Of a DNA stretch of 64,000 nt, positions 3,622-25,441 are shown one piece after another. The position numbers and the translations under genes were made by a program. Origin of the DNA: a virus (Duplodnaviria; Caudoviricetes). The stretch is taken from IMG/VR virus record IMGVR_UViG_3300037400_002732, positions 1 through 64,000 of that record; one strand, given 5' to 3'. The stretch's first letter is position 1. Each line of letters begins with the position of its first letter. The notes beneath the pieces are model-generated. The model did no database searches. It was not told the DNA's origin and saw only the letters and a program-made list of their open reading frames with translations.

Positions 3622-4176
3622 CTACATATAAAGGTCTGCGTAGGTTTCAGACTCCATTTCTTCTGGAGTCATCGACTCTTCCATCTTCAGCAAACGGTTA
3701 TCTAGTAACCAGTACTCGTTCACGTAGCGGTCTTGCCTTAGTGAATCCTTCTCAGTGACGCAAGTAAGACGGCTCAAGTCCATGTTGTCCTTCAAGTCCA
3801 TCAGCTTTACCTTGGTCGCAAGGAGATTTTCGCCGATGCGGTTGATGTAAACATCGCGTCCGTCGGACTTGCCGCGAGTTAGTAATTCAACGGTCTTCCA
3901 AACGGCGACCGGGAAGAATAGCGACAAGTCGGAAACGGTGAAACCGCCGTCTTCGACAACGTCATGCATGTAGGCCACTGCTGTAAGAATGTCGTCGTTG
4001 TACTTTTCTGCTGTAAACTGGGCCACCCTAGTAGGATGATAGATGTAGGCTTGGCTACCCTTGTCCAGCTGTCCGGCGTGAGCGAATTCGGCGAATGCCT
4101 TAGCTCGTTCCACCATACCGAGGTTCTTAGTCTGAATATCCTTCAAAAAACCCTTAATTTCTTCGCGTGATCTCAT
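3622..4176 (-). CDS. HD-domain protein, Mesh1/SpoT-type (p)ppGpp hydrolase-like (small alarmone hydrolase)
   Basis: AHAGQLDK..YIYHP..VA, MHDVVED, VKLMDLKDN motifs of the RelA/SpoT HD domain; no synthetase domain. Confidence 0.8.
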   Translation of the reverse strand: MRSREEIKGFLKDIQTKNLGMVERAKAFAEFAHAGQLDKGSQAYIYHPTRVAQFTAEKYNDDILTAVAYMHDVVEDGGFTVSDLSLFFPVAVWKTVELLTRGKSDGRDVYINRIGENLLATKVKLMDLKDNMDLSRLTCVTEKDSLRQDRYVNEYWLLDNRLLKMEESMTPEEMESETYADLYM

Positions 4177-7679: not shown

Positions 7680-8186
7680 TTATTTCATCATGGACTGTAT
7701 CGTCGCCTTGTCCAGAAGCCGCTGGTTGGAACTGCCTCGGAATCGCAAGGAAAGGTCTCTCTGAGCTTGAATGAACGGCCCATCGACAAGTACATCAACT
7801 TGGTTCAAAATACGGTCTGTAACGCCTTCTACCCACTTTCTCTGGCAGAAGAGCAAGTCACGGTCGAGTACATAGCCAGTGTACATCCAAAGCGTCTTGG
7901 TAGGGCACTTTTTCTTGAACTTCTCGATGAAGTCAACCAAGCAGATCTGATTCTCTTCTTCGAACGGATCGCCACCAAGAATGCTTAGACCAGCTATGTA
8001 GGATTTTTTACACGATTCGATAATTTCATTCTCTTCGATAGGAGTAAATACGGAACCGTAGTTAAAATCCCACGTTTCCTCGTTGAAACAGCCACGACAA
8101 TGGTTACGGCAACCAGACACAAACAGAGATACCCGGCAGCCTTCACCATCAACAATGCTCATTGGATCTATTTTTCCGTAATACAT
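7680..8186 (-). CDS. nrdG: Anaerobic ribonucleotide reductase activating protein (radical SAM)
   Basis: DGEGCRVSLFVSGCRNHCRGCFN (CxxxCxxC), GGDPF, DVLVDGPF, FRGSSNQR. Confidence 0.95.
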   Translation of the reverse strand: MYYGKIDPMSIVDGEGCRVSLFVSGCRNHCRGCFNEETWDFNYGSVFTPIEENEIIESCKKSYIAGLSILGGDPFEEENQICLVDFIEKFKKKCPTKTLWMYTGYVLDRDLLFCQRKWVEGVTDRILNQVDVLVDGPFIQAQRDLSLRFRGSSNQRLLDKATIQSMMK

Positions 8187-9259
8187 ATTCCATGATTCCG
8201 TTTATGATTTCTGAATGAGGCAATATAGTCTTTGCCGTACGTTTTGGCAACATAATTTTCATATTCAGAACAATCAACAATGATTTTAACTTGATTCTGA
8301 ATCATGCACTGATGTTTTGCCTCATATAATCCGTCTAATCGGTGATTGTATGGGTTAATCATCTGCTTATTTGAGTCTTTGTCCTTGAAGAACTGTCGTC
8401 CCTTCAACTCAATAAGTTGACCATCGACACAGAAATCAGGATTATACCAATGAGTCTTACCGTCATATTCATACGTGAACCGAATGTCTGGCTGGTATTC
8501 AAAGGTAATCTTATGATCGGTTAGCCAGATAAGATACGCCACCTCATAAGAGCTATCAAAGTTCATGCCATTGTATGTGTATTTGTGATGTGCTTTGTCA
8601 CTGACTTGTTTACACTGCATAGGAGTAGATACGCCATAACGCTGTAAAGAAGTTTCTTGAGCTTGCTCACGATTGTTATACGTATGGGTTCCATACCGTT
8701 GAATCTTAGTCTCGTTAGACTTTTGGCCAATGTATTCATAATACGCTTCCACGGAACCATACTTGTCAATCAATGTTTCAAAGCACTTATCGCGATTATT
8801 GTATGTAGCAGAACCATGTCGGCGTAATCTAGTTTCAGAGCACTTTTGACGAAAGTCAACCATGTGCGACGGATGTTCAACACCATAGCGAGCCTTCATA
8901 GTCGCCTCACGAGCGTCCTTAGTAAGCTTACACATTTCAGATGCGCTACCATACTTCTCCGCAATAGCTTGATTGCATTTCGTTTGGCGTACTTCTAAAT
9001 AGTTATCACCATACCGTTCCTTCATGGTCTTATCATAATTCATTGCATAAGATTCGGTTTTATGTGCCTTACTTAACGCGCATTTATGGCACACAAAAGG
9101 ATATGAAATTTTATCCAAATTCTTTACTGACAATGAACCGCATTCAGAGCATACAAAGCTAAATTTCGCTCGTCTATATGCCGTACGTGGTTTCAACTCG
9201 TTAGCTTGGTTTAAATCATCAGCTGACGAAAGATGTGCGCATATATTTGTTTTATCCAT
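8168..9259 (-). CDS. Free-standing putative homing endonuclease: Zn-ribbon, (K/R)YG repeats and C-terminal PD-(D/E)XK nuclease
   Basis: CSEC..CHKC; about 7 repeats like TMKARYGVEHP; FDSSYE..YNPDF..LIELKG; start placed at MDKTN just after the structured leader. Confidence 0.75.
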   Translation of the reverse strand: MDKTNICAHLSSADDLNQANELKPRTAYRRAKFSFVCSECGSLSVKNLDKISYPFVCHKCALSKAHKTESYAMNYDKTMKERYGDNYLEVRQTKCNQAIAEKYGSASEMCKLTKDAREATMKARYGVEHPSHMVDFRQKCSETRLRRHGSATYNNRDKCFETLIDKYGSVEAYYEYIGQKSNETKIQRYGTHTYNNREQAQETSLQRYGVSTPMQCKQVSDKAHHKYTYNGMNFDSSYEVAYLIWLTDHKITFEYQPDIRFTYEYDGKTHWYNPDFCVDGQLIELKGRQFFKDKDSNKQMINPYNHRLDGLYEAKHQCMIQNQVKIIVDCSEYENYVAKTYGKDYIASFRNHKRNHGICITEK

Positions 9260-9264
9260 AAGAA

Positions 9265-9374
9265 ATGACCCGTAGCGGACTAATTTGGCGTTCATTCCAC
9301 TACGGGCCATGTAATAAACATCACCACAGTACATTGAAGAACGCCAATTATCCAATGTTCTGCTTTAAGTTTAT
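9265..9374 (-). ncRNA. Kissing-loop 5' leader A with ATAAACT promoter
   Basis: P1 9327-9362 and P2 9265-9310; loops UUGGCGUUC / GAACGCCAA are complementary. Confidence 0.7.
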
Positions 9375-9381
9375 ATGATCG

Positions 9382-11886
9382 CTAAATATTGTGGCGATCT
9401 TTCAATTCGGCGAGCTTGCCATCGCCCCAAGCACGTAAAATTGACTTGCGTGGCGCACCAGTCAAATATCCAGTAATGCGACGTACGCGGACGAATTTAT
9501 TTTCATCAGTGCAATGGCATTTCGGACATTCATTGTCGATTATTCCGTGGAACCCACATTCCAAACAGTCGTCTGAATCCATGGTCACCGTGAAGTAACC
9601 CAGATCACCATCATACATGGTATCAATGACCGCCTTAACCGCGTCCACATTCTTACTCAAATCTCCATTCATCTTATAATAGAAGATGTGTCCAGCATTC
9701 GACAACGCATGGAATGGAGCTTCAGTCTTGATCTTGTTTTCAAGCGTCGTATCCAACGAAAAATCCATCATGTGGGAATTTGTATAATACCCCTTACCAA
9801 AGATACGATACAAGTCTACATCAGCGAGTTTCTTTTCGTTCTGGAACTTATGCTTGTCAATATTCGCGAATCGACCAGCAACCGCTTCTGCCGGAGTAGC
9901 AAAGCAAGACCAGTTCAGATGAGTTTCCTTCTGACATTCGTCACAGAAGTCGCGAATATGCTTTACAATAGACACAGCAAGGTCATGAACATCAGCATCG
10001 ACGCCGTAAGTCTTGCTAGTAAGCAATGTAATAGTTTCGGCGATACCAATGTAGCCGATACTTAGTGTAGACTGCTTCATTACTTCACCAATCTTGTCAG
10101 TAATCGCATGAGGCTTGTCGTCGGACGTCAAATACAGTCCTTGTTGCATCGTAAACGGATACTTTTCATAGGTCTTTTCAGCAATCAGCTTGAAACGGTC
10201 AATCAAGCTACCCTTCGCATCTTCGAGCATGACGTCAAGCTTTTCGAAGAACAGTTTCACACGAGCGTCTTGCGTAGATTCCTCGATATGCGCTTCAATG
10301 GCAAGACGTGGTAAATTAATCGTATGGAACGCCAAGTTGCCACGTCCAGTAGTCTGCTGGGTGCCATTAACGTTGCCAATAACACGGGTACGACAGCCCA
10401 TTGTACTAATAGTCGTATTTTCGATAAGCTTGCGCAGTTGCAGCTGTTTACCATCATAGCTGACTACTTCCCAGAAATCGGTCGGTGTCACTTGGTATTC
10501 ATATACAGTGTATTGAGTTTTGTCAATACGGTCAAGAGCTACCGTATCATTCGTTCCGCGAACCTTGAATACAATCGTTCCAGAAGCATCAATCGTCTTC
10601 ACGTTATACTTGACGTAAGGCAGATTAAACTTCGAATCTACCTTTACAAAGTTCGGATAAAATCGACGTGCAAGACAATGGATTGCGTCGATATACAAGT
10701 CAAAGTTAGGATCGGTTTCGAGCTTAGTGTAACCCTTCATAAGCTTGAAAATCAATATCGGGAAAATCGCCGTAAGTCCATCACCCATACCTTCGTACTG
10801 GGCTCTTATCAAATTCTTGCTAGCCATACGACCGCAGTTAGACGTATCGAGGCCGAAATTTAGTGACGAGAACGGAACTTGGTTACCTGATCGAGACTGT
10901 AACGAGTTAAGATTATGTACAAGAGCTTCCATCGCTTGGTGCGTATCGTCATCAGTAGTATCAATAGCTTCATCAACACAGTCTTGTGGGAACATTGCAT
11001 ACAACGAAGCCACCGGAAGATTCATTGAAACACCTCGGTCTCTTAGTAATTCGATCAAGCGTTTCTTGACTGTCTTGAAACGTCCAGTAAATTCGCTGTA
11101 CTGTGGATCGCCAGTTTTCTTAGCGTAGCTATTAAGTTCCTTGGCCAGATTCTTTAGAAATGAACGATCCACGAAAGGAGCCATTTCAAAATCGAAATTG
11201 TCGCAAGCAATGCCACCAAACTGCTGATTCGACTGCAACTGAAGAATGACGGCAGTCAACGCGGTCGCCGATTGTATTGACTGGGCCGGACGCTGAAAGC
11301 CAGTACCAGAGTCAAAGCCACTCTTTAGCAACTTTCCTACCGGAGCAAACAAACAGTTAAATGTAAGATCGTACTGGTTCAAGTCATGGATATGCATGTA
11401 ACCGTTTGTGTGTTCTTCCGCATACTTACGGTTGACAACATCCAACAAGTTAAACATCTTGTTGACTTCGCTGGCAATCTTACCATACATGCCAGCCGGA
11501 GTTCCGCCAGATTCATTGGCATTGTCTCGAAGAATGTTAGAACTCGGCAAGTCAGCTTGCTTAATCTCGCGAATAATACGCATCACTTCGGACTTGATCA
11601 TTCTGATGCGGGTACGTTCACGACGGTATTCCTCGAATGCGACAGCAGTGTCCACGTACTGGTTATCCTTCAATACCGCATAGATGGTATCTTGGATAGT
11701 TTCGACCGGAACGGTCTTCTTGCCTAGTAATTCCAAGCTTGCAATTACCTTGGCCACCAAGTCATCCAGCGTTTCATCACAATACTGCTCGTGGGATTCC
11801 TTGAACGCCGCCTCGATGGCGTCGTAAATATGTTTTGGTTCAAACTTACGCTTTCGCGTATCACGTTTCTCAACTTTAAGAATCAT
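9382..11886 (-). CDS. nrdD: Anaerobic (class III) ribonucleoside-triphosphate reductase
   Basis: N-terminal ATP cone, HIHDL, QVPFSSLNFG, MGCRT, YYTNS, CLECG..CPKC, RRITGYL glycyl-radical motif. Confidence 0.97.
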   Translation of the reverse strand: MILKVEKRDTRKRKFEPKHIYDAIEAAFKESHEQYCDETLDDLVAKVIASLELLGKKTVPVETIQDTIYAVLKDNQYVDTAVAFEEYRRERTRIRMIKSEVMRIIREIKQADLPSSNILRDNANESGGTPAGMYGKIASEVNKMFNLLDVVNRKYAEEHTNGYMHIHDLNQYDLTFNCLFAPVGKLLKSGFDSGTGFQRPAQSIQSATALTAVILQLQSNQQFGGIACDNFDFEMAPFVDRSFLKNLAKELNSYAKKTGDPQYSEFTGRFKTVKKRLIELLRDRGVSMNLPVASLYAMFPQDCVDEAIDTTDDDTHQAMEALVHNLNSLQSRSGNQVPFSSLNFGLDTSNCGRMASKNLIRAQYEGMGDGLTAIFPILIFKLMKGYTKLETDPNFDLYIDAIHCLARRFYPNFVKVDSKFNLPYVKYNVKTIDASGTIVFKVRGTNDTVALDRIDKTQYTVYEYQVTPTDFWEVVSYDGKQLQLRKLIENTTISTMGCRTRVIGNVNGTQQTTGRGNLAFHTINLPRLAIEAHIEESTQDARVKLFFEKLDVMLEDAKGSLIDRFKLIAEKTYEKYPFTMQQGLYLTSDDKPHAITDKIGEVMKQSTLSIGYIGIAETITLLTSKTYGVDADVHDLAVSIVKHIRDFCDECQKETHLNWSCFATPAEAVAGRFANIDKHKFQNEKKLADVDLYRIFGKGYYTNSHMMDFSLDTTLENKIKTEAPFHALSNAGHIFYYKMNGDLSKNVDAVKAVIDTMYDGDLGYFTVTMDSDDCLECGFHGIIDNECPKCHCTDENKFVRVRRITGYLTGAPRKSILRAWGDGKLAELKDRHNI

Positions 11887-18653: not shown

Positions 18654-18658
18654 CTAAT

Positions 18659-18763
18659 ATAAACTCATATTATATAAGTTCGTGGTGGTTCTTGTATAAT
18701 GCGTGGTAATTTTTAAATGCCAGTTGGATGCTAACCACCACTTTAAGCGTCTAACTGGCATTT
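18659..18763 (+). ncRNA. Kissing-loop 5' leader B with ATAAACT promoter
   Basis: P1 18668-18701 and P2 18715-18763; loops GUGGUGGUU / AACCACCAC are complementary. Confidence 0.7.
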
Positions 18764-18771
18764 GCTATTGT

Positions 18772-20154
18772 ATGGAACAGCAGTGCGGACGAAAGATAGG
18801 CTTACTGCCGACTAAGGCTCAGATACGGACGATGTACCGTATGTGTGCAGTCGCTCGTCACGCATATAACTGGAAGCTCGCTGTCCAGAATCAAGCCTAC
18901 GAGGAAGCCAAGAAGAACACACCAGAAGGTGAAAAGCCAAAGTGTAAGCTCGGTACTCCTATTGACTGGCATAAGGAATGGTGCATCCACAAGAAGCTCC
19001 CAGAAAACAAGTGGATGACAGAAGTATCCAAGTTCTGCGGCCAAGAGGCCCTAATCGACCTCGGTTCCGCATGGAAGCGGTTCTTCAAGGGTCTAGCCAA
19101 GCATCCACGGTTCCATAAGTACGGCGTAGACGAATCGTTCCGGTGTTCTGGCGGAGTATTCATTGGTCGTGATTTCGTTCAGTTGCCTACGCTCGGCAGA
19201 GTAAGACTAGCCGAGAAGGATTACATCAAGATACCGGACGGTGTGGTGAAGACTCCGATTGCGATGGCTACAGTATCAGTAGACCCTACTGGTCACTGGT
19301 CGATATCGTTCGCCTACCATGTCGATGTAGAACCACTTTATTCGCCCAATACCGAAATTACTTCCGATGACATCGAAGGCATCGACCTCGGTGTGAAGGA
19401 TTCTGGAATCACTTCTAGTGGAATAGTATATTCCAATCCGAAGGCATACCGACGCTATATAGCTCGTATCAAGAGATTGCAGAAGGCAATATCTAGGAAA
19501 CGCAAGAAGTCAAAGAACCGCAAGAAGGCTAGTAAGCGGTTAGCCAAGACTTGGCACAAGGTCACCTGTATCAGAGTGAACCATGCTCACCAGATGACTT
19601 CCGACCTAACTTACAAGTTGAAGCCAAAGATGATTGTGATGGAGACACTTCGACCAGGTAATATGACGAAGAACCACAATCTTGCATCCAGTATCCTAGA
19701 TGCCAATTTCGGTAGAATCAAGGAATTTCTTAAATACAAGTGCCAATGGCTTGGTATCAATCTCATCTTTGCTCCGCAGTTCTATGCAAGCAGTCGATAC
19801 TGCTCGCACTGTGGATGCTACCATAATGACAATTTAACTCTCGCTGACCGTGAATGGACATGCCCGGTATGCGGCTGTCATCATGACCGTGACGCCAATG
19901 CGGCGGTCAACCTCAAATTCTATGGTCAGTGGTTGGCTGGACTCGTCCAGACCGACGAAAATGTTGCGGCGCGATTAGCCGTAGGCGGATGTTCCGCCGA
20001 TGCTTGCCCTTCTGTATATCAGAAGGAAGGTATGACTTTTGTCAACCCCAGAGACCGGAGGTTACAGTTCTTCCTAACGGATGAATCGTGCCGGACTATG
20101 AAGCAAGAACTCAATACATATTATAAACCATACAATAGTATAAACTATGGTTAA
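18772..20154 (+). CDS. tnpB: TnpB RNA-guided RuvC nuclease (IS200/IS605 or IS607 type), no tnpA
   Basis: HTH_OrfB-like N-terminus (ARHAYNW), GIDLGVK RuvC-I, VMETL RuvC-II, CSHCG..CPVCG Zn finger, DRDANAAVNL RuvC-III. Confidence 0.92.
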   Translation: MEQQCGRKIGLLPTKAQIRTMYRMCAVARHAYNWKLAVQNQAYEEAKKNTPEGEKPKCKLGTPIDWHKEWCIHKKLPENKWMTEVSKFCGQEALIDLGSAWKRFFKGLAKHPRFHKYGVDESFRCSGGVFIGRDFVQLPTLGRVRLAEKDYIKIPDGVVKTPIAMATVSVDPTGHWSISFAYHVDVEPLYSPNTEITSDDIEGIDLGVKDSGITSSGIVYSNPKAYRRYIARIKRLQKAISRKRKKSKNRKKASKRLAKTWHKVTCIRVNHAHQMTSDLTYKLKPKMIVMETLRPGNMTKNHNLASSILDANFGRIKEFLKYKCQWLGINLIFAPQFYASSRYCSHCGCYHNDNLTLADREWTCPVCGCHHDRDANAAVNLKFYGQWLAGLVQTDENVAARLAVGGCSADACPSVYQKEGMTFVNPRDRRLQFFLTDESCRTMKQELNTYYKPYNSINYG

Positions 20155-21517: not shown

Positions 21518-22390
21518 CTACCCGATGGCTATCTTGGTTCCGCTGACCGGAGCCAAGTATTTTAACGTCACATGGAGCTGGCCCAGTTCAAACTTGCAGT
21601 CGATGTCGCCACGATCCACGGGTCTGTCGATGCGGTAGAGAACTGTGTGCGTTCCGAGTAGAAAGTTAGGAATATTTATCTGCGCTTGCCACTTGTTTTC
21701 TTCTTTTTTACGTTTACCGCCCTTTTTCGTGCCCTTCGGAGCAGACTGCTTCGCTTCGGCGGACATCATCGATACACGAGGTTCGCGCTTGAACGTGACG
21801 GCAACCTCGTTGTTCTGCGTAAGAACAAGGTCGATATCTTCCTTGGGTATGCCAGGAAGATCAACGAAAAGATGGAACTCGGTATCGGTCATCACGATTT
21901 CAGACGGCGGCTCCGGCAACAATCCTTGCATCGGAGGCGGTTGCTGAGGCTGATTGTTGATAGGAATCGGCATGCCTTGCGGCGGCTGTTGCGGAGGCGG
22001 CTGCTGCATATAAGGCTGTTGAGGCGGCGATGGCGGCGCGTAGTTCGGAGCCATCTGTCCATAAGCAGCTGGTTGCATGGGAGTCCCCGGCGGAAGCTGC
22101 TGTGTCTGTACACCTACACCTCGTCCACGCGGCGGTGCCGAGCTCGGAGGAAGGCCCACGCGACGGTTGAAAGCATCGCTGTTCCTTGCTACTTCATTCG
22201 CCATTTCATCAATGATTCTCGGATTGATCGGAGTTCCACTACCGTCGCTCAATCCGTTGCTGATTACAGATGTATAGTCTGGTTGACCAGTAAAAATAAG
22301 AGTATCGCTCATATCTGACCTTGCTTTAATGTATTCGACATCCACCTTGTGGCCACGAAATAATCCGCTTATAAAGTTCAATAATCCCAT
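21518..22390 (-). CDS. Hsp20/alpha-crystallin domain protein with a Pro/Gln-rich linker
   Basis: FHLFVDLPGIPKEDIDL..IDCKFELGQLHVTL. Confidence 0.75.
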   Translation of the reverse strand: MGLLNFISGLFRGHKVDVEYIKARSDMSDTLIFTGQPDYTSVISNGLSDGSGTPINPRIIDEMANEVARNSDAFNRRVGLPPSSAPPRGRGVGVQTQQLPPGTPMQPAAYGQMAPNYAPPSPPQQPYMQQPPPQQPPQGMPIPINNQPQQPPPMQGLLPEPPSEIVMTDTEFHLFVDLPGIPKEDIDLVLTQNNEVAVTFKREPRVSMMSAEAKQSAPKGTKKGGKRKKEENKWQAQINIPNFLLGTHTVLYRIDRPVDRGDIDCKFELGQLHVTLKYLAPVSGTKIAIG

Positions 22391-23202
22391 TATTCACCAC
22401 AGGCCGTCCTTAGCTCTGCGACTTCCTTAAGCCCTCTCAGTTTAGCAATGGCCTTGGCTCGGATTCTCCTTACCATTTCCTTGCTGATCCGTCGTTCGGC
22501 GGATATTTCGCTGACAGTGTACTCGGAACCGTCAAGAGCATACAATCTTCGTAGTAAATTATTCTCTTCTGCGCTCAAGTTGTCTTCCATCACTTCGCGG
22601 AGCTTGTCCTTGAGGAAGTTTTCGCCATGTTCGGCATCGGTCTGAAGGTCGGACGCTATCGTGTCGCCTACTGTCGTGTGGGTGGCCGAATGGTCGTTAT
22701 TTTCACCTACCATGGCGGAGAACGACGTAGTTTCCCTCAATGCGTTCTCTGCCAGTACGCCATACTTGATTCCGTCCACGCGGCTTCCCTTCTTCTTGGC
22801 CGATAGGACTCGATTTCGCTGCATGACCGGAACACGGACAAGGTCACTCGTATTAAGCATCATCTGCATGTGGCGGCGAACCTCGAACACTGCAAACGAG
22901 CCGAACTTGACCCCAGTTCGGTGATCGAATTTCTCGAAAGCCTCCAGCAAGCCGAGCTTGCCTTCCGAATAGAAATCGTTGATTGGCAATCCGTTCTGTC
23001 GCTTGTAGGCTTTTGCCAACGCCAGTACGAATCTGAGGTTAGACTGTATTATCGCTACCTTGATTTCTTGTTTGCGCTTGAAATCGTGCGATGCTTCGTA
23101 TTCTTCGAATAGTTTTTTCTCAGCTTCGCGGCCAAGAATCTTGTACTTTTTCGTCTCCTCAGTGAGCAGACTTGTGCTGCGATCTTCTACGTACGTTTTC
23201 AC
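22390..23202 (-). CDS. Sigma70-family RNA polymerase sigma factor
   Basis: Region 2 (SNLRFVLALAKAY, EGKLGLLEAFEKFD..G.KF), VRVP, region 4 HTH (SKEMVRRIRAKAIAKLR). Confidence 0.9.
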   Translation of the reverse strand: MKTYVEDRSTSLLTEETKKYKILGREAEKKLFEEYEASHDFKRKQEIKVAIIQSNLRFVLALAKAYKRQNGLPINDFYSEGKLGLLEAFEKFDHRTGVKFGSFAVFEVRRHMQMMLNTSDLVRVPVMQRNRVLSAKKKGSRVDGIKYGVLAENALRETTSFSAMVGENNDHSATHTTVGDTIASDLQTDAEHGENFLKDKLREVMEDNLSAEENNLLRRLYALDGSEYTVSEISAERRISKEMVRRIRAKAIAKLRGLKEVAELRTACGE

Positions 23203-24555: not shown

Positions 24556-25317
24556 TTACATTATTTCATTTTCAAGCAGAACTGAAGCAATTCGTTTAAT
24601 TACATTAGCCTTGTCGGCCTTATATTCGCTTGCCCATACGGAAATTACTGTGTAGCCCATTCCTCGAAGCACGTCCAAACGTTCTTTGTCATGTTCCCAG
24701 ATGTCCTTGGCGGTTATATTATGGTGAATAATATCGGTTGCTTGATATTTAGCTGGATTAGCATGCCAGAAATCGCCGTCATACTCAATAATGTACTTAC
24801 CAAAGGTGAAGTCCGGAAATATCCACTTGTCGCCATAAGGAATTGTTTTCATTGACTCAAGTTTACTCGCCGATTCGCCCAAGGATTGACGTAAGTCTTC
24901 GCCAAACTGTAATTGTTCCTTAGAAAAATTAGGCGATACATGTTGATTCCATACTATTGCGCCACTTTTCCACGTCTGCTTAAACCGTTCTGCACGAAGT
25001 TTTCGCTGTTCGGGATCTTTAAATTGCTCATGCGCGTTTTTACTCTGTAACGCTTTAAATTCATCCGAACGAGTCAGACCAGTCATGCCAGATATGACTT
25101 TAGCACGATATGAATCATCCTCCCACAATTTCTTAGAAGCATCTGCAGTAGCCAATTTAATCTTATCTACGGTTTCTTTTGAATGTTTACGACCGAAAAA
25201 CGGATTATTAGCCCCAGTTCGATCGCGGTGCGCGTTGCAATAGCCAGATTTATTTTTGTCACTTATACGGCAACCACACTTCAAGCAATGCTTATTCAAT
25301 TTATGTCCACTAGCCAT
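24556..25317 (-). CDS. Putative homing endonuclease: NUMOD3 DNA-binding motif plus Vsr/DUF559-like nuclease
   Basis: CLKCG..YCNAH; NPFFGRKHSKET (NUMOD3); FPDF..IIEYDGDFWH..D..R...GYTVISVWASE. Confidence 0.8.
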   Translation of the reverse strand: MASGHKLNKHCLKCGCRISDKNKSGYCNAHRDRTGANNPFFGRKHSKETVDKIKLATADASKKLWEDDSYRAKVISGMTGLTRSDEFKALQSKNAHEQFKDPEQRKLRAERFKQTWKSGAIVWNQHVSPNFSKEQLQFGEDLRQSLGESASKLESMKTIPYGDKWIFPDFTFGKYIIEYDGDFWHANPAKYQATDIIHHNITAKDIWEHDKERLDVLRGMGYTVISVWASEYKADKANVIKRIASVLLENEIM

Positions 25318-25323
25318 AAAAAA

Positions 25324-25425
25324 ATCCTACCGGAACTAGCCCTTCCGATAGGATACAACACGCCTAAGCGTGTTTAAACTTAACTACATATCAGCAAGGG
25401 CTAGTTGCTTTTAATAGAAGTTTAT
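25324..25425 (-). ncRNA. Kissing-loop 5' leader C with ATAAACT promoter
   Basis: P1 loop ACUAGCCCU (25397-25405); P2 25324-25354 with loop AGGGCUAGU; extra hairpin at 25357-25374. Confidence 0.65.
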
Positions 25426-25441
25426 ATGATGTCGAGTTGAC

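What the first reader, a model, noticed from the sequence alone, without database searches (positions are those of the whole stretch)
9265..9374. Leader A: kissing loops ahead of the endonuclease inserted between nrdD and nrdG
On the minus-strand RNA, P1 is CAGAACAUUGGA (9362-9351) paired with UUCAAUGUACUG (9338-9327), 11 of 12 paired, with a loop containing UUGGCGUUC. P2 is AUGGCCCGUAGUGGA (9310-9296) paired with UCCGCUACGGGUCAU (9279-9265), 15 bp with 2 G-U, with a loop containing GAACGCCAA. The AUG follows 5 nt later. The in-frame upstream starts in the ORF track lie inside this structure and are probably not used.
Basis: seen in the sequence. Interest (0 to 1): 0.75.

Follow-up and report, generated by a model that had tools for sequence, protein, structure and literature searches.

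The report
Kissing-loop RNA switch before phage nucleases
In large rumen phages, a folded RNA of about 110 letters sits in front of many unrelated selfish DNA-cutting genes; its two hairpin tips always pair, and it most likely works as an on/off valve that keeps the nuclease scarce, but it matches no Rfam family and no paper I could search.

Summary
Observation confirmed base for base. Leader A is one member of an RNA family with no Rfam match: TATAAAC promoter motif, hairpin P1, linker, long hairpin P2, U-run, AUG. I collected 41 distinct copies with 18 different loop codes. In 25 aligned copies the 9-bp kiss is 100% Watson-Crick, with 7 of 9 positions compensatory. Every copy precedes a selfish nuclease (DUF7487/PD-(D/E)xK, TnpB, NUMOD3/Vsr-like); leader A itself also precedes a tnpB. 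Leader A is 77-98% conserved while the nuclease's synonymous sites are saturated, and upstream AUG frames are not conserved, so it is RNA, not protein. Added by this analysis: P2 plus its U-run resembles a weak intrinsic terminator; all ten leader-bearing alleles checked carry a sigma70-type promoter for nrdG inside the nuclease gene; and the layout mirrors the guanidine-IV riboswitch, where kissing the terminator loop blocks termination. Best model: P2 is the OFF state (termination and start-site occlusion) and the kiss is the escape route. No RNA data were available, so the direction is inferred. This scan has reported the family before in at least 10 genomes.

The parts
9382..11886 (-). nrdD, anaerobic ribonucleotide reductase (upstream host gene)
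   Evidence: Pfam NRDD, ATP-cone, Gly_radical
9368..9375 (-). TATAAACT, phage promoter motif (late-type, inferred), 22-33 nt before the P1 loop 9-mer in nearly all family members
   Evidence: 16 sites vs 7.2 expected in the genome, mostly intergenic and in sense before genes; enriched in most related records; invariant in alignments. Promoter activity not shown.
9327..9362 (-). P1 hairpin; 12-nt loop = 3 unpaired nt + 9-nt kissing strand
   Evidence: 4 compensatory pairs in family A
9339..9347 (-). K1, kissing strand in the P1 loop (UUGGCGUUC)
9311..9326 (-). U-rich linker (8-29 nt in the family, median 14)
9265..9310 (-). P2 hairpin, -26 kcal/mol; 3' arm holds a weak SD-like GGGU; 5' arm starts with a conserved AUG/GUG
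   Evidence: (7 compensatory pairs)
9285..9293 (-). K2, kissing strand in the P2 loop (GAACGCCAA), followed by a 4-nt A/U segment
9260..9265 (-). U-run directly after P2 (UUUCUU); terminator-like tail and spacer to the AUG
   Evidence: score 0.0 here, family median -5, 36% above 0; antisense median -58
8168..9259 (-). 363-aa free-standing endonuclease: Zn-ribbon-like N-terminus, DUF7487 repeats, C-terminal PD-(D/E)xK-type domain; inserted at the nrdD/nrdG junction
   Evidence: Pfam DUF7487 E=3e-14, PDDEXK_3 weak E=1e-3; invariant PDF and ExKG motif; weak TnsA-like fold hits, E about 0.1; empty alleles L002, L003. Nuclease activity not shown.
8222..8250 (-). sigma70-type promoter (TTGCCA-17-TATATT) inside the nuclease 3' end, 35 nt before nrdG
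   Evidence: kept in 10/10 leader-bearing alleles at synonymous positions; absent from the coupled leaderless allele and from empty alleles
7680..8186 (-). nrdG, activase; start overlaps the nuclease 3' end
   Evidence: Pfam Fer4_12
18658..18774 (+). Leader B: same architecture, different 9-nt code, before tnpB (18772-20154)
25315..25426 (-). Leader C: variant with an extra hairpin and a U7 tail, before a NUMOD3/Vsr-like nuclease (24556-25317)

Best explanation
A portable cis-acting attenuator that rations selfish nucleases. Transcription starts just after TATAAAC, at the base of P1, or reads in from nrdD. P1 folds first and displays K1. K2 leaves RNA polymerase before the 3' arm of P2. If P2 zips to its base, the RNA is OFF: P2 plus the U-run acts as a weak intrinsic terminator or pause, and any read-through RNA has its weak SD and ribosome footprint buried. 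If K1 captures K2 first, the rigid P1-kiss-P2 rod stretches the short linker and hinders the bottom pairs of P2, which lets polymerase pass and a ribosome load. A small share of new transcripts therefore makes nuclease. SHOWN by computation: the structure, the kiss, selection on RNA, association only with nucleases, the U-run, the nrdG promoter. INFERRED: promoter activity, termination, and that the kiss opposes rather than locks P2. The broader claim 'cis leader that limits nuclease expression, with P2 as the OFF element' I put at about 0.8; this specific version at about 0.5.
For: U-run begins right after P2 in almost every copy: about 6 U in 10 nt vs 3.1 before ordinary phage AUGs, and only on the sense strand; C-type copies score like the genome's own terminators (+17 to +26 vs +4 to +32). 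All 10 leader-bearing nrdD-nrdG alleles keep an internal sigma70 promoter for nrdG; the leaderless, translationally coupled allele L035 and empty alleles L002/L003 do not, so read-through from nrdD appears blocked. Rod geometry: a straight P1-kiss-P2 needs a median of 3 bottom pairs opened even with a nearly stretched linker. The same layout gives antitermination in the guanidine-IV riboswitch (PMC7736828; PMC11611296). A plain hairpin suffices to repress (allele L045; T4 cases, PMC2988022), so the strictly kept kiss and a dedicated promoter argue for an escape function. The ORFs stay intact under purifying selection, so they must be expressed.
Against: Leader A's own U-run is marginal (score 0.0; median -5; L041 and L106 are poor). 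P2 has a 13-nt loop and 15-20 bp, unlike typical terminators. The nrdG promoter is also explained by translational block plus polarity, and allele L045 with a plain hairpin and no U-run has one too. With a 90-degree bend most copies can hold kiss and full P2 together, and several have slack linkers. No input signal was found: pairing of the promoter sequence with the linker, which could tell late from read-through RNA, is no better than shuffles family-wide.
Confidence: 0.5

Rival explanations
1. Locked translational repressor: P1, kiss and full P2 coexist in a bent fold. The kiss restrains P2 from unwinding and so deepens occlusion of the start site; expression is leakage, or follows a ribosome entering at the conserved AUG/GUG at the base of P2.
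For: Fixed loop geometry (3+9 and 9+4 nt) and a kept closing pair suggest kiss and top of P2 coexist; opening -20..+13 costs 15 kcal/mol vs a median of 7.8 for -15..+13 in ordinary genes; weak SD lies in the P2 3' arm; AUG/GUG at the P2 base in most type-I copies.
Against: P2 at about -25 kcal/mol needs no lock; does not explain the U-run; outcome of the upstream ORF is not conserved.
Confidence: 0.25
2. Sensor RNA: the kiss is gated by a ligand, an ion or a phage/host protein (riboswitch-like), timing nuclease synthesis to a stage of infection.
For: Architecture of the guanidine-IV riboswitch; near-invariant loop residues and extreme conservation in family A; found only in phage contigs, not in other Fibrobacter genomes searched.
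Against: 7 of 9 kiss positions and most stem positions vary across the family; few invariant unpaired bases for a pocket; the downstream genes share no metabolite.
Confidence: 0.1
3. The terminated ~110-nt RNA is itself the product, or leaders pair between molecules (head-to-tail dimers), with the 9-nt code giving element-specific recognition or copy counting.
For: Own promoter plus terminator-like end define a small RNA; codes differ between element families, stay fixed within them and have no G-U; an antiparallel dimer would relieve the linker strain (inference).
Against: Always fixed 0-11 nt before a nuclease AUG and never found alone; the same code serves unrelated nucleases; many homologous nucleases lack it.
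Confidence: 0.09
4. Positive element only: a 5' stabiliser or ribosome-recruiting structure for SD-poor nuclease genes.
For: P1 sits at the predicted 5' end; leader genes have weak SDs in an SD-using phage.
Against: nrdG needs a new promoter downstream; ordinary SD-poor late genes lack the structure.
Confidence: 0.04
5. Not an RNA element: an N-terminal coding extension, or a DNA-level end or binding site.
For: The frame is open from 9355 in this allele; gene callers extend several homologs into it.
Against: Frame not conserved; about 5 G-U pairs per copy and about 10 kcal/mol better folding on the sense strand; IS end hairpins lie separately upstream in the tnpB elements.
Confidence: 0.02

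Closest known systems
Guanidine-IV riboswitch (GGAM-1 / mepA motif; PMC7736828, PMC11611296)
   Same: 5' hairpin whose loop kisses the loop of a downstream hairpin followed by U residues; short linker; the kiss is proposed to stretch the linker and keep the outer terminator pairs from forming (ON switch).
   Different: No Rfam match; the kiss sequence varies freely here (18 codes); few invariant unpaired bases; genes are nucleases, not guanidine exporters; U-run weaker; phage promoter motif attached; no ligand known.
Regulatory hairpins of T-even homing endonuclease genes (I-TevI/II/III, segB, Aeh1 mobE, seg43(25); PMC2988022)
   Same: Structure directly before a selfish nuclease start; late-type promoter; insertion beside nrd genes; a promoter for the downstream host gene embedded in the nuclease ORF.
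   Different: In T4 the late transcript starts inside the hairpin and so escapes it; here the promoter precedes the whole structure. T4 uses single hairpins over a consensus SD, with no kissing loops and no shared family across nuclease types.
IncI-alpha ColIb-P9 repZ pseudoknot switch (PMC4705826)
   Same: Loop GGCG pairing with downstream CGCC (family A has the same UUGGCG/CGCCAA hexamers); a stem hides a weak start site; an upstream start codon is present.
   Different: There the partner lies in the stem next to the SD, a leader peptide must terminate at a fixed place, and an antisense RNA competes. Here the partner is in the loop, the uORF outcome varies, no antisense promoter is conserved, and other codes lack the hexamer.

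Membership tests
Guanidine-IV riboswitch | Two hairpins joined by a loop-loop pseudoknot | tested here: met
Guanidine-IV riboswitch | Second hairpin is a Rho-independent terminator | tested here: inconclusive
   directional U-run; score 0.0 for leader A, median -5, 36% above 0
Guanidine-IV riboswitch | Highly conserved nucleotides around the kiss / family model match | tested here: not met
   7 of 9 kiss positions vary; no Rfam hit at gathering score or E up to 10 other than miRNA noise. I did not verify that a guanidine-IV model is in the library.
Guanidine-IV riboswitch | Upstream of sugE, MATE, PnuC or related guanidine genes | tested here: not met
   all downstream ORFs are nucleases
Guanidine-IV riboswitch | Binds guanidine | not testable with these tools
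   needs probing
T-even homing-endonuclease regulatory hairpins | Late-type promoter just upstream of a free-standing endonuclease gene | tested here: met
   TATAAAC motif; activity inferred
T-even homing-endonuclease regulatory hairpins | Hairpin sequesters a consensus SD | tested here: inconclusive
   only weak GGGU/AGGU (-3.2 kcal/mol) in family A; UAGG(A) in C-type; poorly spaced in most tnpB copies
T-even homing-endonuclease regulatory hairpins | Late transcript lacks the 5' arm and escapes the hairpin | tested here: not met
   promoter motif lies 5' of P1 in all copies; promoter-linker pairing no better than shuffles
ColIb-P9-type rep pseudoknot switch | Leader peptide ending at a fixed place near the main start | tested here: not met
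   fusion, overlap or 3-20 codon ORFs
ColIb-P9-type rep pseudoknot switch | Antisense RNA against the first stem-loop | tested here: inconclusive
   no antisense sigma70 site scoring 10/12 or more in any copy; no RNA data
Known self-cleaving ribozymes and other Rfam families | Match to a covariance model | tested here: not met

The most novel reading that the evidence does not exclude
A mobile class of kissing-loop switches, swapped between unrelated phage nucleases, in which the 9-nt code gates antitermination in response to a signal (ligand, phage protein, or other copies of the same RNA pairing in trans). That would be a riboswitch-like or copy-counting control layer for homing endonucleases and TnpB, with at least 18 natural, potentially orthogonal codes.
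Probability: 0.2. Interest if true: 0.9.

Novelty: new variant of a known kind. Interest (0 to 1): 0.68.

Why it matters
How free-standing phage nucleases and TnpB are expressed enough to spread without harming the phage is worked out only for a few T4 genes. This family gives a second, shared solution that unrelated nucleases swap as a module. If the kiss opposes termination, it is a ligand-free natural counterpart of the guanidine-IV mechanism, whose steric model is still a proposal, and the 18 natural codes with different linkers make that model directly testable. It also corrects gene starts that callers extend into the leader.

Tried and rejected
Rfam at gathering score (window) and E up to 10 (region): nothing real. 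BLASTN against GenBank phages: one chance hit. Paper searches found no description of the family; the supplements of the two motif catalogues (PMC5737381, PMC10690425) are not held, so a listing there cannot be excluded. One search used a mis-registered structure string and is void; one search replaces it. One search crashed before its last rows and timed out (redone). Rejected: P0 helix between promoter sequence and linker as a general switch (mean -1.9 vs -1.7 shuffled), although the MFE shows it in this allele and in C-type copies; nrdD stop read-through (stop-to-leader distance varies); hairpin looping-out to bring a distant SD close (no consistent SD in the linker); co-conversion as the cause of leader conservation (flanking nrdD fourfold sites 23-38% identical); protein-specific autoregulation as the only role (same leader on unrelated proteins). 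Bias note: the pattern fixed part of the loops, so invariance of kiss positions 2-3 may be inflated; the sequence-blind scan and the model searches did not demand particular kiss letters. Fold search of the nuclease gave only weak PD-(D/E)xK-type hits. Direction of leader transfer between tnpB and the DUF7487 gene was not resolved; no tree was built.

Full report
Observation. Every detail is in the sequence. On the minus strand the order is nrdD stop (9382), TATAAACT (9375-9368), P1 (9362-9327), a 16-nt linker, P2 (9310-9265), UUCUU, AUG (9259). Both hairpins are in the minimum-energy fold, z = -5.3. The two loops hold an exact 9-nt complement, with a chance of about 2e-4. Rfam has no match.

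Setting. The window is the first 64 kb of a 175-kb phage record with tail sheath, DNA polymerase and terminase genes. The host is probably Fibrobacter: a close homolog is labelled so, and related contigs are binned in Fibrobacter MAGs. The ORF 9259-8168 has DUF7487 repeats and a C-terminal PD-(D/E)xK-type domain with invariant PDF and ExKG residues. Relatives without it have the nrdD stop overlapping the nrdG start (L002, L003), so it is an insertion that looks like a free-standing homing endonuclease. Activity is inferred.

Family A. Every homolog of 52-68% identity that I could place lies at the same site and carries the same leader. P1 has 4 and P2 has 7 compensatory pairs, 0/500 shuffles; the kiss is invariant. 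P1+P2 are 77-98% identical to the window copy, while fourfold sites are 25-41% identical in the nuclease and 23-38% in the adjacent end of nrdD. That is selection on RNA. The AUG at the base of P2 is kept, but it gives an in-frame fusion, an overlapping stop or a short ORF depending on the allele, so the region is not conserved as protein. More distant homologs at the same site solve the problem differently: L035 has a 15-nt gap and no structure, L045 has one plain hairpin. Leader A also precedes a tnpB gene in L063, L074 and L175.

The wider family. A degenerate pattern that left three kiss positions free on each side gave 13 viral hits, 12 of them with perfect complements. A scan blind to sequence and promoter over 1.55 Mb of related phage DNA found 18 kissing architectures; all had (T/C)ATAAAC 22-33 nt before K1 except one at a contig edge, and none lay elsewhere. 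A covariance model added more. In all, 41 distinct leaders carry 18 codes (two artefact rows removed). In 25 aligned copies the kiss is 225/225 Watson-Crick with no G-U, and 7 of 9 positions are compensatory; one further copy has a terminal C.A mismatch. The geometry is fixed: P1 loop 3+9 nt, P2 loop 9+4 nt. Every downstream ORF is a nuclease: DUF7487, TnpB/Cas12f-like proteins of 367-579 aa, or NUMOD3/Vsr-like. Codes are shuffled among nuclease clades. About 20 nuclease genes in 11 phage records have a leader and about 14 do not. In a search of 101 Fibrobacter genomes and one of 151 genomes of the family, only two MAGs matched; two of the three contigs carry the phage sigma homolog, and the third was not checked. 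Copies fold about 10 kcal/mol better on the sense strand, with about 5 G-U pairs each.

Three clues to function. First, a U-run starts directly after P2: about 6 U in 10 nt against 3.1 before ordinary AUGs, on the sense strand only. The terminator score is 0.0 for leader A, median -5 for the family, +17 to +26 for the C type, and +4 to +32 for the genome's own terminators. Second, a sigma70-type promoter, TTGCCA-17-TATATT, lies inside the nuclease 3' end, 35 nt before nrdG. All ten leader-bearing alleles keep it through fixed codon choices. The coupled allele L035 and the empty alleles lack it; the plain-hairpin allele has a different one. So a structure here cuts nrdG off from nrdD transcription, by termination or by polarity. 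Third, a straight P1-kiss-P2 rod is slightly longer than the linker can span: a median of 3 bottom pairs must open at 180 degrees, 1 at 120, 0 at 90 (crude rod model). The phage uses SD sequences (55% of long genes at -4 kcal/mol or better), whereas leader genes have weak ones, partly inside the P2 3' arm.

Mechanism. P2 is the OFF element: complete, it can terminate or pause at the U-run and it hides the ribosome site. K2 is transcribed before the P2 3' arm, so the ready-made P1 loop can capture it first and hinder the bottom of P2. That is the model proposed for the guanidine-IV riboswitch, where a rigid kissing structure stretches the linker so that the outer terminator pairs do not form (PMC7736828), and where growth of P2 competes sterically with the kiss during transcription (PMC11611296). 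A plain hairpin represses well enough, so a strictly kept kiss plus a dedicated promoter fit an escape route better than a lock. I give this 0.5, a locked translational repressor 0.25, a ligand- or protein-gated sensor 0.1, and a trans-acting or dimerising small RNA 0.09. The sign of the kiss is inferred, not shown; no reads were available.

Known systems. It works like the T-even homing-endonuclease hairpins in purpose (PMC2988022) but fails their defining feature, since the promoter precedes the whole structure. It works like guanidine-IV in layout but fails on conserved sequence and gene context. Family A shares the loop hexamers of the ColIb-P9 repZ switch (PMC4705826) but lacks the fixed leader peptide and a conserved antisense promoter. 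It is a member of none.

Verdict. A real, strongly covarying cis-regulatory RNA family of large rumen phages with no Rfam match and no description in the papers searched; a new variant of kissing-loop leader control. This scan has reported the family before on other DNA (15 notes, at least 10 genomes), mostly read as weak-translation leaders. Interest 0.68.

Noticed in passing
window 8250-8222 (-): sigma70-type promoter for nrdG written into the nuclease's last codons and kept in all ten leader-bearing alleles; it would make deletion of the invader costly.
   Followed up: yes
window 22390-23202 (-): Phage sigma-70-like protein (regions 2 and 4) with 45-72% homologs in related records that also carry leaders; candidate reader of TATAAAC. 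Absent from the 45-kb record G010, whose leader has a sigma70-type promoter as well.
   Followed up: partly
G053 contigs C67 and C29 (L169, L172-L179): Nine leader copies before tnpB genes on two contigs of one Fibrobacter MAG; C67 carries the phage sigma homolog, so it is probably a mis-binned phage.
   Followed up: partly
L094:2742-4481, L101, L103, L106, L142, L169: Clade of 577-579 aa proteins with only the Cas12f1-like TNB domain detected, behind leaders with longer linkers; unusually large TnpB-like nucleases.
   Followed up: no
L083, L101, L103, L106, L172 and others, just upstream of TATAAAC: Many tnpB elements carry a sigma70-type promoter whose -10 box abuts TATAAAC, so both promoters would start near the base of P1; L168:2260 has only the sigma70 one.
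   Followed up: partly
L004, L005, L007 near 3935-4000: Alleles without the nuclease that have a 65-nt nrdD-nrdG gap holding a strong terminator-like hairpin just before the nrdG SD.
   Followed up: no
L031:3409-3459: Extra AT-rich perfect hairpin between the nrdD stop and TATAAAC in one family-A allele.
   Followed up: no
L036:3092-4175 and L063:1483-2718: Leader intact although the downstream nuclease ORF is split by a frameshift (real or assembly error).
   Followed up: no
G000 93953 (-), outside the window: Second tnpB of this genome sits 40 nt behind TATAAACT with no structured leader; a natural leaderless control.
   Followed up: partly
G000 172822-174729: Cluster of eight tRNA genes with a TATAAACT-driven ORF inside it.
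   Followed up: no
L001:2190-2300: A 28%-identical DUF7487 nuclease in an unrelated phage also lies between nrdD and nrdG, with a long stem-loop over its 5' region.
   Followed up: no
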